Of a stretch of DNA of 64,000 bases, positions 52,201 through 58,546 are shown piece after piece. The stretch's first letter is position 1, and every line of letters begins with the position of its first letter. The notes beneath the pieces were generated by a model. It saw nothing but the letters and a program-made list of their open reading frames with translations, made no database searches and was not told where the DNA came from. The stretch comes from the human T2T-CHM13v2.0 reference genome, Homo sapiens, in the NCBI RefSeq assembly GCF_009914755.1, contig NC_060931.1; one strand, given 5' to 3'. The position numbers and the translations under genes are program-made.

Positions 52201-55149
52201 GGGATGATAGGATGACACTCCTATTGATAAGAAGCTAGAAACATTGTTTCTTTTCCCTTCACCTTCTCCCCTCTGCTCACCACCTCCGGGAGAGCCAGAT
52301 AGTTCTGGGGTTCAATTCTGGCTTTGTCATTTAAACCATAGGTCCTTGGGCAAGTAACTTATGTAAAGCATGCAGTATAGTGCCTGGCACACAGCAAGCA
52401 CTCAATAAATGGTAGCTATTGTTGTTTTAATAAACTTGAGTGGTTACTTGCAGAGCAATTGTGCCCATGGAAAGGGAAAAAAGGGTTTTTCCCTTGCTTA
52501 GCTTAACCCACATAAAGAATTAACCATCTCCAGTGTGAAGCAGGCCTGCTGCAAGTTTAAGGGTTTGAATTGATGTCATAGGTCACATCCTGGGTTTTAA
52601 TTCCAAGGAAAGAGAACTTTGGAGCAGATGAGGCCTCACGCTGAGCCTCACATCTCCATCCAGGCCTCTGCAGAGCAACTCAGCCCTCACAGGGCAGCAG
52701 CTTTGCCTGCACCTCCTCATTCCTTGCATTGCATCAGCTCTCCTCCTCCTCCAAACCCTTGGGGGCCATCTTTTCTCTCTGCGCCGCCTGAGCTATTAGA
52801 TGTAGCTTGCAGAGGAGCATACCTTCATTCAACAGACATCGACTGAGGACCTATTGTATGCTGGACACGTGGGACAAAGAGACGCTAAAATAGTCCCTGC
52901 CCTTTGAAGTTCATAACCTGGTGGGGAAAACAAAAGTGTGCTAAATTCCAAATCTGGGATCAGCATAAGGTGCTTTGGAGAGAGGGATCAGACTGCTGTC
53001 CAGTCCTGGGAGATGGGAGATGGGAGAGGCTTGTCAAGGGGGAGGTGGTTGCCCTGCTGAGTGAGGAAGCCCTAGGGACGCAGCCCTACAGGAGGAGCTG
53101 GAGGATGCGGGGAGCAGGGTCTGGAGCTGCCCCGAGGAGGCCCATGGGGTGATCTGTTTGTCCACCTGTTGTGCCCCAGGGTGACTACAGTGCAGAGTCT
53201 GGGACAGGGTTCACCTGAGCTACACGTTTACCCATGGTCTACAGGAGCCACGAGCAACACATCTACCCACACGGGAGCCATGGTCTGCTGTTCTCCAGGA
53301 CGCCTTGGTTGTGGGCAGTCCAGGCCTTTGTTAGGGTCCAGAGTCCAGCTGCCATATGGATCTGTCAGAATAGTGGTGATCCCTGTGCCAGCCACTGCGC
53401 TGCCTGTATGAGGAAGCATGAAGCAGGGCTGTGTTTGCAGGGTGTTTCCATATTGGCACTCTATCGTGCTTGCCGCAGCACCTAAGAATGGGATGAGGGG
53501 GAACCTTGGGGGAGACAGGGGAGGTGGGTGTATGTGCACGAAACTAGAGAAGTGAAGTGCCTGAGCTCAAACCACCGTGGCAGAGCAGAGAATGGAGGCC
53601 TCTGGGAGCCCTTGGGCCTTGGCTTCCCCGCTGAGACAGGGCAGGTTTGAGGTGGTACTGCCCGTGTCTGTGTCCACCCCCATCCCCTAGCCGTGTTCTT
53701 TTCCTTTCTATTTTGGTTCAGCTTACCTAGAAATGCTGCTAAAAATATGGGAGACATCCTCAGGCATATTATTGATTTTGCTTTTGAAAAACATGGTGTT
53801 CACCGAGTGTCCCCATTTCTCTTATGGTCTGCAGAGGAGATGAACACTGGGGGCTCTGGCAGGTGACAGCAGGGGCTGGAAAGCTGAGCAGTGTTGATGT
53901 GCTCCGAGTGGAGGCACGGGTGGGGTTGGTCATCAGCACCTGGGGTGCTGGTGTCACTGCATGAGAACTCAACATCTGTCCTATGGACTAGTTTCTTTGT
54001 CTTCCTAGTATTCCCTTCCCGTTGTCTCTGTTTAAAATGCCAATTTCCGTGGGACGTGGAACTCCTAAAGTCCCACATCCAGCAGTGAGGTGTCTCCAGG
54101 AGCAGTGAAGGGATGGGGTGGGGGTTGGGGTAGGAGTGGATTCTCCAGAGGCCACAAGCCAGACGGGTGGGGCCTGGTGGGGCAGACTGGTCCTCCAAGC
54201 GAGCTGTGAAAGCAGGCAGGCCTGACCTCCAGGCCTGGTGTTGGGAGGAAGGGGCTGATTTTACAGCCTGGGGTCTCCCACCTGGAATTCTTCAGTTCCC
54301 AGGCTCCAGAAGGCACAGTGGGCACCTGCAGAGCTGCAGAGAGGACCCTCATGGTATCGGGAGGCCCGCATCTCTCAATGCCCTCCATCAGGCACAGCGC
54401 CACCCCAACCACCACATCCATTGTCTGCTGCAAGGATCCCTGCCTGGGCCTTGGAGAGAGAGTCGCGTTTCTCCACCTGGCAGCTACAGAGAGGCCACAG
54501 AGAAAAAAGCCTATTTAATGTTCTTCTACTACTTGTGACTTTTAAAATAACTTTTCCTCTCAGGCCTCTGTTTTTTTGTCTGTCAAATGTACACCCTCAG
54601 GCACGTTCTCACTGGGGCCCAGGTTTTTACTTCCCTGTCGTCACACACTATTTATGTCTGAGGGTCTCAGTCCCAGGGCGGTGCAGTGGAACACAAGCTG
54701 GGCCACGGTGCTGGGTCACGGTGCCGTGTTCCCGTCTGTGCTCTGCTACTTAGAGCTGTGAGTGTTGGAGGAAGCCACTCTGTGTTTCAATTTTATTTTC
54801 CCGTCTATAAAATGGGATAAAACCCACACAAGGTAGGGTGCACATGGTTATTGGAAGGTTCCCACGAGATCATAACATGGAAAAGGGCTTTGTAAAAGGC
54901 AAAGTTATGTCCGAGTAAGGGACATTATCATTAAATGGCAGCTGGAAGCTGTAATTTGGTTCTGCCCTCTCACGCCCGCTGCTACTCCAGACGTCGTAAG
55001 TTGCTCTTTTATGGGATATCTCTGGCTTGACTGCGGGTTCCGTTCTGAGGAGGTGGGGTCAGCAGGGGCCTGATGTCTTCTTCCTTTCCCTCTGGTCACT
55101 CTAGTGATATAACCCAGGCCATATAGTCAGGCAGACTTTGGCGAAACTG

Positions 55150-56350
55150 TCAGCGAGGGCAGCTCCTCGATTCGGCCCCTTTGACTATTGTCTCCAGTCC
55201 TGAAACCCTCGCCCAGGGCCGCTCCGCCGCCGGGCTCCGGCGCTCAGCCCATGTCACCCGGGGAAAGGCCGGCGCCTCCGTCCGACCCTCTTTCCTGTCG
55301 CTGGGGGCGGTTTGTGGGCCTGGCCTTGGGATTAGGAAAATAGGGATGGTGCTATAACGGCCGAATGCAGGCCTCAGGGAATCCCGAAAGGGGGAATGTC
55401 TGGGTCGGCGGATCGGGGGGCTTGAGAGGGCCCGCTCCGTGGGACGTTCAGGCCCCGGAACCGGCCCCCGCATGGTCGCCGCTCCGGCCCGGGCGGGCGC
55501 AGCGCTGGCAGCCCCGTTTTCCGCCAGCCGGGCTGCCGGAGAGTTAGACCTCCCAGCCTCACGGGGCTGCTGTGCGGCTGCGACGACGCCGGCGACTGCG
55601 GCGCTGCAGCGGAGACGGAAGGCTCGGGAGGCGGCGCCATGTGAGTGCGCGCGGGGCCGCGCTGGGGCCGCGGCGGGAGGTTACCGTATTTACCGAGGCC
55701 AGAGCCGGACCCTCGGGGGCGGGTCACTGCGGGCGTGCTACCGTATTTGCCGGGTCCCGCGCAGGTCCTTTCCGGGAGTGGGAGCGCCGGGACTTAATTA
55801 CGTATTTATCCAGGGTTGCGTGGCTCCGCGGGGGGGCGCTGCGGCCGTGGGGGGTGGGCTGCATTCATTCCCTCTGGGAGCTGGGGCTTGCAGTCGGGCG
55901 GGGTGGGTTGCGGCAGCAGGGTGGAGGCCTACGTATTTTCGTGGGGGTGGGGTTGCGACGCAGAGTTTACCATATTTCTCCAGGGTTGCTCCGGCCGCAG
56001 AAGTTGGCAAGGTTGTGTGTAAGGTCGGGTGGGGTGGGGTCAGCTCTCCCGATTAATGCAGCTATTTGATAAGAGCAACGTCGCGGGACGCTTGCCGTCT
56101 TTATGGGGGCGGGGAGAAGGGGCGCGGGTGTCGCTGCGGGAGAGTTACCGTATTTGCGTTGAGCAGCGCAGACTGTAGAGCAAAGAGCTGCGGCCGGAGA
56201 CCGGAGGAGCAGGGGCTCAGCTGGGCTGTGAGTGTGGCATGGGAGGAAAGAACTTGGGGGAGAGACGGGGGGCCTTTCGGCGTGCAGGCGGGGCCTCAGT
56301 CAGGGGTATAGCTGGGGAGAGTGAGGAGGCTGCCCAGTCACAGGGCCGGG
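55150..56350. promoter_or_regulatory. CpG-island promoter of the third zinc-finger locus, with two candidate first-exon donors (CAT|gtgagt 55640/55641; GCT|gtgagt 56227/56228)
   Basis: CpG/GC-rich; two GTGAGT donors 1.7-2.3 kb upstream of the acceptor at 57906. Confidence 0.8.
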
Positions 56351-57934
56351 CTGAGATTGGCCAAGGGGACTCTGATGATCTGTCTTTGCAGATGTCAGTG
56401 CAGCTGCCTGTGGAAAAGACTTGTGGGTGGGGTCTCTTGCAAGTAGGACTTGTCTCCTTCCCCAGGGTCAGTTCCACCCCGGCCTCGAGGGTACGGAAGA
56501 CAGAGGAGGTGGCCCTGAGACCCCACTCTGCAGATAGGTTGACTGAGGCTGGAAGTGAAGAGAGGCCTTCGGGGAGGTCCAGTGGAATATTCAGCCGGCT
56601 TCCCTGATGGGGTTGGGGAGAATGGATGAGGCAGGCCTTAGGGCCCTGCAGGAGCCCAAGTTTTGGTGGGGGTCGTGGGAGTGGTGGCAGTAGACAGTGC
56701 ATCTACAGGAGAAGTGGCCCTTTGGAATGCATGGCTCTGTGACGGCTGGGATGGTGGCAGTGGGGGGTGTGTGTGTGTTTTGAGGAGTGTTTAGTTGTTG
56801 AGCAGCTAGTACATTGAAAAGAGCTTTCAACAGTGAGACAGGAGACTTAAGGCCTAGTCCAGGCTCACCTTGCTCTGTGACCTTGGCAAGTATGTTGACC
56901 TCACTGAGCCTCAGTTTCCCCATCTTTAAAGTGGGGCTCAATAACCCTGCTCCGCCCCTTTCTCAGGGCTGTTGTGAGGACAATGGGAAACAATTTAAGA
57001 GGAACACAGTGTCCTGGGAAGAGGATCCTTTGGAGAAGCAGCATGAAGGGAGCTGGGTTTGGGGGTGTTGGCTGGGCACTGAGGGTGCTGCTCAGCCTTG
57101 GGCCAGGCTTTGCTGTGAGGATACCAAGAGGAATCACGCTGAGACCAGTCCCCCTGGGAGCCCACACCCTGGTTCAGTGACTTGGAAACCTTTTGAACAC
57201 ATGCCTCATTTTGATAAACAAAGAGCTGCCGCCTTTAATGTTTAACCGAGGTCACTTTCAAGTTTACAGGGTTGTGTTTTTTTTCCTGTTTTAAGCTTCA
57301 CAAAAATATCTTTAAATCACTGATAATGCCACCCTTTTCTCCAAGTTTGGGGTGCACTTCCCTACCTCCCCCTGTCCTTGAGATCTGGTTGGAGGGATAA
57401 GACATATCTAGACGAAGGTAACTGAAAATCCTAGCTGAAACTGAAACTGAAAATCCTAACTGAAACTCATCACCATCTGTCTAGTGTCTTGTGTGGCTGG
57501 CTGGCATGGTGCTAGGTGCTGGGGTTGAAAGAAGGCAGCTCTGTCCTTAGGGTGCTGGGAGTCGGGGGACAGAGGTGGCATGACTGACCCTCGTGCAGTA
57601 TGATCAGTGAGAGCCACATGGTTGTGTCACACGGTGTTTAAGCCTGGGGTGGAAAGGTCAGGGAAGGCTTCTAGGAGAAGGTGCCCTTGGGAAGGGACTG
57701 GAAGGAGTGTAGGCCGTGCTTAAAAGGCAGTGGAGGAAGAAGAACACCAATTCCCAGCAGGGGAACTTGAGCTTGAACAAAACGGGGCGAAAGGTGGAGG
57801 TTGTGGGAGGTGAGTGTCCCTGCCAGGCTGGGGGTTGGCTAACCCTCGTGTTCCCCGACCCCTCTCTCTCCACCCCCCACCCCCGCCCCCGCTTCTGTCT
57901 CCCTAGGGACTGGTGATTGCAGCTGGAAGTGCCC

Positions 57935-58546
57935 ATGACCGAGCTGGCGTCCTCCGGGGGCGGGTCCCCTGCGGGGGACGGGGAGGAGGGTCTGGGGGAC
58001 GAGCGAGGCCTGGTCATCCACCACCCTGCAGAGGAGCAGCCCTACCGCTGCCCGCTGTGCGGCCAGACCTTCTCGCAGCAGCCCAGCCTGGTGCGGCACC
58101 AGAAGGCGCACGCCGGAGCGGGCCGCGCGGCTGCCTTCGTGTGTCCCGAGTGCGGCAAGGCCTTCAGCGTCAAGCACAACCTCGAGGTGCACCAGCGCAC
58201 GCACACCGGGGAGCGGCCCTTCCCCTGCCCCGAGTGCGGCCGCTGCTTCAGCCTCAAGCAGAACCTGCTCACGCACCAGCGCATCCACAGCGGCGAGAAG
58301 CCGCACCAGTGCGCGCAGTGCGGCCGCTGCTTCCGCGAGCCGCGCTTCCTGCTCAACCACCAGCGCACCCACGCGCGCATGCCCGCGCCGCACCCGCGCC
58401 GCCCCGGCGTCTTCGGGGAGCGGCGGCCCTACTTCTGCCCCCGCTGCGGCAAGAGCTTCGCGCGCGAGGGCTCGCTCAAGACCCATCAGCGCAGCCACGG
58501 CCACGGGCCCGAGGGCCAGGCGGCCCACTTAGGACGCGTGCTATGA
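57935..58546 (+). CDS. LOC728743: Intact 203-aa protein with five C2H2 fingers (locus recalled as 'zinc finger pseudogene' LOC728743; exon 57907-58811)
   Basis: ATG 57935 to TGA 58544-58546; five complete C-x2-C-x12-H-x3-H fingers with HTGERP/HSGEKP linkers; high GC3 with CpGs retained; acceptor cttctgtctccctag ends 57906. Name is from memory of synteny. Confidence 0.75.
   Translation: MTELASSGGGSPAGDGEEGLGDERGLVIHHPAEEQPYRCPLCGQTFSQQPSLVRHQKAHAGAGRAAAFVCPECGKAFSVKHNLEVHQRTHTGERPFPCPECGRCFSLKQNLLTHQRIHSGEKPHQCAQCGRCFREPRFLLNHQRTHARMPAPHPRRPGVFGERRPYFCPRCGKSFAREGSLKTHQRSHGHGPEGQAAHLGRVL

What the first reader, a model, noticed from the sequence alone, without database searches (positions are those of the whole stretch)
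55681..56155. Six same-strand copies of (T/C)TAC(C)GTATTT in the third gene's CpG island
Seen: TTACCGTATTT 55681, CTACCGTATTT 55738, TTACGTATTT 55798, CTACGTATTT 55929, TTACCATATTT 55967, TTACCGTATTT 56145. This is an AT-rich word repeated in a very GC-rich background, with mostly unrelated spacers (two copies share a TCCAGGGTTGC flank). The cluster lies between the two candidate first-exon donors. Inference: a homotypic binding array (for the gene's own fingers, or REPIN1, known to bind ATT/T-rich DNA), an RNA-protein or decoy 5' splice-site array (GTATTT is also ZNF775's exon-1 donor), or an old minisatellite whose core was preserved.
Basis: partly seen in the sequence, partly recalled or inferred. 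Interest (0 to 1): 0.75.

Follow-up and report, generated by a model that had tools for sequence, protein, structure and literature searches.

The report
Repeated 10-base word in LOC728743 promoter
A short AT-rich word occurs six times on one strand in the GC-rich start region of a small human zinc-finger gene; it was left by old local duplications and probably serves as a cluster of protein docking sites, though the protein is unknown.

Summary
Six + strand copies of YTAC(C)RTATTT lie at the stated coordinates, and there are none elsewhere in the 64 kb on either strand. In an unbiased k-mer test of the island it is the top over-represented word (0 of 300 shuffles better at k=6, 7, 9, 10; 1 of 300 at k=8).

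It is not a regular minisatellite (TRF finds none). It is the residue of nested local duplications:
- A ~175-bp block (55640-55816) aligns full-length with the next block (55817-55986), z=5.2.
- Copies 1, 2 and 6 share 40-55 nt of flank.
- At least two further copies have decayed and one is deleted.

Conservation has sharp edges (10 positions plus an optional base).

Best reading (0.45): a homotypic array of sites for one sequence-specific DNA-binding protein in the CpG-island promoter and alternative-first-exon zone. The binder is unidentified. ZNF775's published consensus is absent and the DMTF1 PWM fits poorly.

The copies are very poor U1 sites and share no RNA structure.

A neutral duplication relic remains a serious rival (0.28). 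No cross-species or occupancy data could be consulted.

The parts
55681..55691 (+). Copy 1, TTACCGTATTT (type I, with the extra C); lies in alternative first exon 55666-55764
   Evidence: flank homology to copy 6
55738..55748 (+). Copy 2, CTACCGTATTT (type I); a 42-nt unit is 76% identical to the copy 6 unit; alternative exon 55743-55801 starts at its G
   Evidence: (family D1); hub table
55798..55807 (+). Copy 3, TTACGTATTT (no extra C); GT at 55802 is the annotated donor of alternative exon 55743-55801; shares the TCCAGGGTTGC flank with copy 5
   Evidence: (D6)
55929..55938 (+). Copy 4, CTACGTATTT; homologous by block alignment to the decayed site at 55761-55771
55967..55977 (+). Copy 5, TTACCATATTT (CG changed to CA); 22-32 nt upstream of the start (55999) of the selected transcript's exon 1
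   Evidence: hub table
56145..56155 (+). Copy 6, TTACCGTATTT (type I); inside exon 1 (55999-56227) of the selected transcript
   Evidence: hub table
55761..55771 (+). Decayed copy (GCAGGTCCTTT) aligned to copy 4 in the block A/B alignment; its GT (55765) is the annotated donor of exon 55666-55764
   Evidence: hub table
55859..55869 (+). Decayed copy (CTGCATTCATT) aligned to copy 1 in the block A/B alignment
   Evidence: (D3)
55532..55546 (+). Flank-only relic GCTGCCGGAGAGTTA; 14 of 15 identical to the upstream flank plus first three bases of copy 6; core lost
   Evidence: D4, D7
56092..56102 (+). Possible decayed copy TTGCCGTCTTT (2 mismatches); at chance level on its own
55640..55816 (+). Block A of the higher-order duplication (copies 1, 2, decayed site, copy 3)
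   Evidence: A vs B z=5.2, 0 of 300 shuffles; 110 of 186 columns identical
55817..55986 (+). Block B of the higher-order duplication (decayed site, copy 2 homologue deleted, copies 4 and 5)
57935..58546 (+). LOC728743 coding sequence: 203 aa, five C2H2 fingers; candidate binder of the array (hypothesis only)

Best explanation
The array is a homotypic cluster of one short cis-element, created by old nested local duplications inside the LOC728743 CpG island and kept in about six of at least nine original positions. The element is 10 conserved positions, YTAC-RTATTT, with an optional single base between TAC and RTA. All copies lie on the sense strand, spread over 475 bp across the alternative first exons. 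The most likely action is at the DNA level. Several molecules of one sequence-specific protein, most plausibly a C2H2 zinc-finger protein reading three triplets, would dock side by side, so that occupancy depends on the number of sites rather than on any one site. This would set promoter output or first-exon choice. Shown: the copies, their non-randomness, their uniqueness, the duplication history and the sharp motif edges. Inferred: selection on the core, DNA-level action and the class of binder. Unknown: the binder and the sign of the effect. RefSeq marks 55302-55761 as a silencer (hub table).
For: The six copies are far beyond chance and are the top-ranked word in the island. Relative entropy is 1.7-2.6 bits at nine of the ten positions from -4 to +5 (1.20 at -4 and 0.74 at 0, the R position). 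It drops to 0.04 at -5 and 0.18 at +6, giving a footprint-like block. Copies 1, 2 and 6 align over 72 columns with 34 identical in all three, and the longest invariant run is the 10-nt core (41 of 5000 column permutations reach it). Between subfamilies the flanks are at control level while the cores are identical: 26 of 30 flank pair scores are not above the island control. Mismatch counts are bimodal: six sites have 0 mismatches to the degenerate consensus and the next best has 2. This fits retention of some sites and free decay of redundant ones. The region has no paralogue in the genome. Exact pairs of the 10-mer within 300 nt occur otherwise only in three true tandem-repeat arrays and one short chr19 pair. 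The AT-rich word sits in 60-77% GC sequence with CpG o/e 0.8-1.1. A known precedent for such logic is ZNF410 with its CHD4 motif clusters (abstract starts in the listing).
Against: There are no occupancy data and no cross-species conservation; neither could be consulted with these tools. In the block A/B alignment (59% identity) the cores are not better conserved than the flanks. Of four sub-sites, one pair is intact in both blocks, two are decayed in one block and one is deleted. No high-identity window exceeds permutation (window 11: 4028 of 5000; window 27: 1220 of 5000). Same-strand orientation is explained by tandem duplication alone. No known factor tested fits: ZNF775 and DMTF1. Literature string searches returned only primer hits.
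Confidence: 0.45

Rival explanations
1. Neutral relic. A short unit carrying the word was multiplied by tandem or nested duplication in the CpG island, and the copies are simply decaying. The six good cores are survivors with no function of their own.
For: Duplication origin is demonstrated. In the A/B block comparison the cores are no better kept than the flanks, and three of eight sub-sites are decayed or deleted. Same-strand orientation and irregular spacing (57, 59, 131, 39, 178) follow from duplication plus indels. The same 10-mer is amplified in ordinary tandem-repeat arrays elsewhere (chr10, two on chr17), so it has no obvious special status.
Against: Copies whose flanks no longer align (26 of 30 flank pairs at control level) still have identical cores with sharp edges. 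Uniform decay should blur the cores as much as the flanks. In the copy 1/2/6 alignment the core is a significantly long invariant run (41 of 5000). Mismatch counts are bimodal. TRF detects no array at score 30 or more.
Confidence: 0.28
2. RNA-level element. The word acts in the transcript as UAC(C)GUAUUU, either as weak or decoy 5' splice sites or as a binding site for an RNA-binding protein carried by every alternative 5' leader.
For: All copies are on the sense strand. Five copies lie whole within an annotated alternative first exon, and copy 3 straddles the donor at 55801|55802 (hub table). Copy 3's GT is an annotated donor, and the decayed homologue of copy 4 (55765) is another. GTATTT is also the donor of two ZNF775 5' exons (29734, 32687), so 3 of 23 annotated donors in the window are GTATTT.
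Against: U1 duplex energy is -1.5 kcal/mol for five copies and +1.4 for copy 5. These are the weakest values among 23 annotated donors (median -6.7) and weaker than the median of all 54 GT sites in the island (-3.9). The conserved exonic side (TAC/ACC) is contrary to the MAG consensus (recalled). Two of five island donors falling on motif-derived GTs is about P=0.09 by my own hypergeometric estimate, which is not significant. There is no consensus RNA structure (0 pairs), and single-unit folds are unremarkable (z 0.67, 0.79, 0.36, -2.15, -0.14, 0.74). The copies do not match the U12-type RTATCCTT consensus (recalled).
Confidence: 0.15
3. The binder is a known factor: DMTF1 (Myb-like; CCCG(G/T)ATGT), the neighbouring paralogue ZNF775, or REPIN1.
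For: On the minus strand three copies read AAATACGGT. They share ATACGG with the DMTF1 consensus ACATACGGG, a 7 of 9 match (consensus from PMC3161675, passage). ZNF775's in-vitro consensus ends GAATTT, one base from GTATTT (PMC13541613, passage).
Against: The DMTF1 PWM (PMC7862700, supplementary file 5) scores the copies 4.0, 4.0, 0.0, 0.0, -2.6 and 4.0 out of a possible 14.7, and better hits lie elsewhere in the island. The conserved TTA end is unexplained. For ZNF775, 0 of 8 GNWGAATTT and 0 of 10 GNWGAAGCA window matches fall in 55200-56400. REPIN1 has no usable motif in the papers searched, so it is untested.
Confidence: 0.05

Closest known systems
ZNF410 motif clusters at CHD4 (a dedicated zinc-finger factor with one target)
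   Same: Many same-motif sites are packed into a few hundred bases at one gene. The cluster has no counterpart elsewhere in the genome (here). The motif length is suited to a short C2H2 array. Source for ZNF410: abstract starts in the search listing.
   Different: For ZNF410 the protein, occupancy, conservation and function are all demonstrated; here none is. The word is different. Here some copies are visibly decayed, and single copies of the 11-mer are scattered through the genome (688 exact).
Homotypic clusters of transcription-factor binding sites in promoters (general class)
   Same: Three or more sites of one motif lie within a promoter-sized interval, beyond chance.
   Different: The motif matches no factor tested here. 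The strict same-strand orientation and the traceable duplication origin are not general features of the class.
GC-rich minisatellite or tandem repeat within a CpG island
   Same: It originated by local head-to-tail duplication, with a higher-order ~175-bp block duplicated and all copies in one orientation.
   Different: There is no regular period. TRF reports only three unrelated short arrays in 55000-56800. The spacers are mostly unalignable while the cores are intact.
Arrays of U1 or 5' splice-site-like motifs downstream of promoters
   Same: The copies are sense-strand GT-containing words just downstream of start sites, and one copy is used as a donor (hub table).
   Different: Complementarity to U1 is worse than for random GT sites in the island.

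Membership tests
Minisatellite / tandem repeat | Head-to-tail copies with a regular period, detectable by Tandem Repeats Finder | tested here: not met
   at score 30 or more only three unrelated 9-11-nt arrays in 55000-56800. Spacings of the word are 57, 59, 131, 39 and 178.
Minisatellite / tandem repeat | Units alignable over their whole length (common descent) | tested here: inconclusive
   Blocks A and B align full-length (z=5.2), and copies 1, 2 and 6 align over 72 columns. However, 26 of 30 flank pairs are at control level.
Homotypic cluster of protein-binding sites | Several matches to one motif within a few hundred bases, more than composition predicts | tested here: met
Homotypic cluster of protein-binding sites | Occupancy by the cognate protein | not testable with these tools
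   No ChIP, footprint or SELEX data are reachable, and no paper describing the word was found.
Homotypic cluster of protein-binding sites | Cores more conserved than spacers between species | not testable with these tools
   No vertebrate genome other than the window's own is held. The within-locus paralogue comparison gives mixed results.
Dedicated single-target cluster (ZNF410-CHD4 type) | No comparable cluster elsewhere in the genome | tested here: met
   The region is unique. For exact TACCGTATTT pairs within 300 nt, all 15 matches were listed: this locus, three tandem-repeat arrays and one chr19 pair. Of 4 mixed pairs, two are here. For TACGTATTT pairs, 143 matches exist and 100 were listed; apart from this locus they are mostly AT-rich tandem repeats, plus some isolated pairs in non-GC-rich sequence. 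43 were not seen.
5' splice-site / U1-binding array | Base-pairing potential with the U1 5' end comparable to real donors | tested here: not met
   -1.5 (five copies) and +1.4 kcal/mol, against a median of -6.7 for 23 annotated donors. The U1 motif was recalled.
DMTF1 (DMP1) binding site | Match to CCCG(G/T)ATGT / PWM CAT[C/A]CGGG | tested here: not met
   best scores are 4.0 of 14.7 (three copies), 0.0 (two) and -2.6 (one). PWM, consensus.
ZNF775 binding site | GNWGAA followed by TTT or GCA | tested here: not met
   0 of 18 window matches lie in the island. Consensus.
PAR-bZIP / NFIL3 site (TTACGTAA, recalled) | Palindromic TTAC|GTAA half-sites with fixed spacing | tested here: not met
   Read directly: no copy has GTAA, and four of six carry an extra base between the half-sites. 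The consensus is recalled and comes from no call.

The most novel reading that the evidence does not exclude
The array is an autoregulatory landing pad for the gene's own 203-aa five-finger protein. Read on the minus strand, the word is AAA-TAC-(G)-GTA. Canonical C2H2 contact rules (recalled, not computed by a trained model) give GTA for finger 1 (helix QQPSLVR: R6, S3, Q-1) and a central A for fingers 2 and 3 (N at position 3). The only non-canonical, long linker (AGAGRAAA, between fingers 1 and 2) falls exactly where the word has its optional base. The same rules reproduce the published ZNF775 half-site GAA for its QKPNLxR fingers. LOC728743 finger 1 differs from those at position 3 (N to S), which would turn GAA into GTA. 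In the island the derived pattern NAN-NAN-(N)-GTA hits exactly the six copies on the minus strand (plus one palindromic overlap on the plus strand). A random 11-mer fits with P about 0.01-0.03, or 0.04-0.09 without the weak S-to-T rule.
Probability: 0.12. Interest if true: 0.7.

Novelty: new member of a known kind. Interest (0 to 1): 0.42.

Why it matters
If the cores are constrained, this is a compact and easily testable example of how a promoter acquires a multi-site docking platform by duplicating a short unit, then keeps only the word that matters. It would also give an uncharacterised human zinc-finger gene (LOC728743, until recently labelled a pseudogene) its first defined cis-element, and possibly a self-regulatory loop. 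If the cores are not constrained, it is an ordinary decaying duplication in a CpG island and needs no further attention. Methylation-array studies repeatedly list probes assigned to this gene, in intron 1 or the gene body (passages). I could not map those probes onto the array.

Tried and rejected
- Regular tandem repeat: rejected.
- Paralogous copy of the region elsewhere in the genome: none found.
- Homology of the LOC728743 5' island to the ZNF775 or REPIN1 5' regions: only weak GC-rich hits, best E=0.004 on the opposite strand.
- Literature search for the word and its reverse complement: 520 papers with at least one of the terms, 30 listed, all primer or oligo contexts and none about a motif. 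The same outcome for the DMTF1 nonamer strings.
- LOC728743 in print: 22 papers, 20 listed. The three I opened (passages only) list it in methylation or ChIP-primer tables.
- RIP60 plus 'ATT-rich': 0 papers. REPIN1 plus 'binding motif': nothing usable.
- ZNF775 as binder: rejected.
- DMTF1 as binder: rejected on its PWM.
- Shared RNA structure: none.
- TATA-like or start-site modules: offsets from the word to annotated exon starts are inconsistent (26, 56, 94 nt, or inside the word; hub table). Only copy 5 sits near -30 of a start, so this was rejected.
- U12-type donor, YY1, SRF/CArG, forkhead (4 of 6 copies fit RYAAAYA, but through the non-conserved downstream bases), PAR-bZIP, OSR: considered from recalled consensus sequences only. 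None explains the conserved positions.
- Earlier findings of this scan were not open.
- The chr17 19-bp tandem-repeat array sharing TACCGTATTTACC with copy 1 was judged a coincidence.

Full report
**1. What is there**

- Four copies carry an extra C (TTACCGTATTT at 55681 and 56145, CTACCGTATTT at 55738, TTACCATATTT at 55967).
- Two copies lack it (TTACGTATTT at 55798, CTACGTATTT at 55929).
- Neither degenerate form occurs anywhere else in the 64 kb on either strand.
- The setting is a CpG island: 60-77% G+C and CpG o/e 0.8-1.1 between 55200 and 56200.
- The island spans the alternative first exons of LOC728743 (hub table).

**2. Chance**

- Shuffle expectations are 0.08 for the three YTACNGTATTT hits and 0.00 for the two YTACGTATTT hits.
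- To remove the bias of testing a word chosen by eye, I ranked every k-mer in 55200-56400 by Poisson probability under a dinucleotide model. Sub-words of this motif are first at k=6, 7, 8, 9 and 10.
- Only 0, 0, 1, 0 and 0 of 300 shuffles respectively produced any word as extreme.
- Raw counts alone do not single the word out, because G-rich words are as frequent.

**3. Genome context**

- The 591-nt region has no second copy in the T2T genome.
- The exact 11-mer occurs 688 times genome-wide on both strands, so single copies are unremarkable.
- Two exact TACCGTATTT within 300 nt occur at this locus, in three genuine tandem-repeat arrays (chr10 with a 23-nt unit, chr17 with a 19-nt unit, chr17 with a 37-nt unit) and in one short chr19 pair. 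All 15 matches were listed.
- Pairs of the 9-mer TACGTATTT number 143. Of the 100 listed, those outside this locus are mostly AT-rich tandem repeats, with some isolated pairs in non-GC-rich sequence; 43 were not shown.
- Mixed pairs number 4, two of them here.
- The cluster is therefore the only one seen in GC-rich, non-satellite sequence.

**4. Origin**

TRF finds no array containing the word, but the copies are related by descent.
- Copies 2 and 6 share a 42-nt unit at 76% identity.
- Copies 3 and 5 share TATTTnTCCAGGGTTGC.
- 55532-55546 repeats the upstream flank of copy 6 but has lost the core.
- Upstream 30-nt flanks score above pairs of random island 30-mers as a group (P=0.0006). Downstream flanks do not (P=0.18). 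Only 4 of 30 individual flank pairs reach the 1% tail.
- Block A (55640-55816) aligns end to end with block B (55817-55986): score 21.5 against 8.3±2.5, with 0 of 300 shuffles as good.

In the block A/B alignment:
- copy 3 pairs with copy 5;
- copy 4 pairs with a decayed site at 55761-55771;
- copy 1 pairs with a decayed site at 55859-55869;
- the homologue of copy 2 is deleted.

Block A also matches the copy 6 neighbourhood locally (z=5.6), whereas blocks B and C do not align. The history is therefore nested duplication of a unit that already carried several copies, followed by the loss of some.

**5. Is the core constrained?**

The evidence is mixed, and both sides are given here.

For constraint:
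- Anchored on the word, relative entropy is 1.7-2.6 bits at nine of the ten positions from -4 to +5 (1.20 at -4; 0.74 at the R position). It falls to 0.04 and 0.18 at the two adjoining positions.
- In the copy 1/2/6 alignment (34 of 72 columns identical in all three), the longest invariant run is the 10-nt core. Only 41 of 5000 column permutations reach it.
- Subfamilies whose flanks no longer align still have the same core.
- Mismatch counts are bimodal.

Against constraint:
- In the A/B alignment (110 of 186 columns identical) no window is better conserved than permutation predicts.
- Three of eight sub-sites are decayed or deleted.

Selection for a sufficient number of sites, with redundancy after the block duplication, explains both sets of facts. 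Uniform neutral decay explains only the second. This is inference, and cross-species data would settle it.

**6. Splice-site reading**

- All 23 annotated + strand donors in the window were scored for duplex energy with the U1 5' end (a recalled motif). Their median is -6.7 kcal/mol.
- Five copies give -1.5 and copy 5 gives +1.4, below the median of all 54 GT sites in the island (-3.9).
- Copy 3 is nevertheless the donor of alternative exon 55743-55801, the weakest of the 23.
- The decayed homologue of copy 4 is the donor at 55764|55765.
- Five copies lie whole within some annotated alternative first exon, and copy 3 straddles the donor at 55801|55802 (hub table).
- No shared RNA structure exists (0 consensus pairs). 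Five of six single-unit folds are unremarkable.

An RNA-level role is not excluded, but a U1 decoy array is not supported.

**7. Who might bind?**

- ZNF775: a GHT-SELEX paper gives its consensus as GNWGAA followed by TTT or GCA (PMC13541613, passages). None of the 18 window matches lies in the island.
- DMTF1: I recalled a CCGTAT-containing nonamer and confirmed it in a review passage (PMC3161675). Its PWM from a supplementary table (PMC7862700) gives the copies at most 4.0 of 14.7.
- REPIN1: no usable motif was found.

**8. The boldest reading still allowed**

- LOC728743 encodes five C2H2 fingers related to the ZNF775 arrays.
- Only recalled canonical contact rules were used. Fingers 3-2-1 predict NAN-NAN-GTA, and the long finger 1-2 linker coincides with the optional base.
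- In the island this pattern hits exactly the six copies on the minus strand, plus one palindromic overlap on the plus strand.
- A random 11-mer fits with probability 0.0096 (uniform composition) or 0.026 (motif-like composition). Without the weak S-to-T rule the figures are 0.038 and 0.085.
- This is post hoc and rests on one motif, not six independent tests.

**9. Verdict**

The feature is real, non-random and unique. It was produced by old local duplication. It is most likely a homotypic docking array for an unidentified DNA-binding protein (0.45). A neutral relic (0.28) and an RNA-level element (0.15) are the main rivals.

I found nothing in print about it: plus passages from three papers. 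Supplements of other papers and subscription journals were not searched.

Noticed in passing
window 29735, 32688, 55802: Three of the 23 annotated + strand donors in the window begin GTATTT: two ZNF775 5' exons and LOC728743 copy 3. All seven GTATTT found in at least 60% G+C context lie in the 5' regions of these two paralogous genes. No promoter homology between the two genes was detectable.
   Followed up: partly
window about 55813, 55909, 55951, 55984: GGGTTGC occurs four times on the + strand of the island (count; approximate places read). Two occurrences are the shared flank of copies 3 and 5. It may be a second repeated element or just part of the duplicated unit.
   Followed up: no
L012-L017 (G000:C17:1357827-1358155): A 19-nt-period tandem-repeat array on chr17 has the unit CTACCGTATTTACCCCGGT and shares 13 nt (TACCGTATTTACC) with copy 1. 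Judged a coincidence, since any word can be amplified in a tandem repeat.
   Followed up: partly
window 57935-58050: The N-terminus of the LOC728743 protein ends GLVIHHPAEEQPY just before finger 1. This resembles the C-terminal half and linker of ZNF775's first-type finger ([15 protein letters not shown]) and looks like a decayed finger without its cysteines.
   Followed up: no
window 55989-56000 and 56188-56199: A perfect 12-nt inverted repeat, CTCCGGCCGCAG / CTGCGGCCGGAG, has its first arm overlapping the start (55999) of the selected transcript's exon 1 and its second arm inside that exon. Together the arms bracket copy 6 (pair I4).
   Followed up: no
window 55742-55802: Annotated alternative exon 55743-55801 starts at the G of copy 2's GTATTT and ends just before the G of copy 3's GTATTT. 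Its length of 59 nt equals the repeat spacing. The preceding bases are CC, not AG, so 55743 is a transcript start and not an acceptor. Coincidence, or an alignment or template-switch effect at direct repeats, cannot be told apart here (hub table).
   Followed up: no
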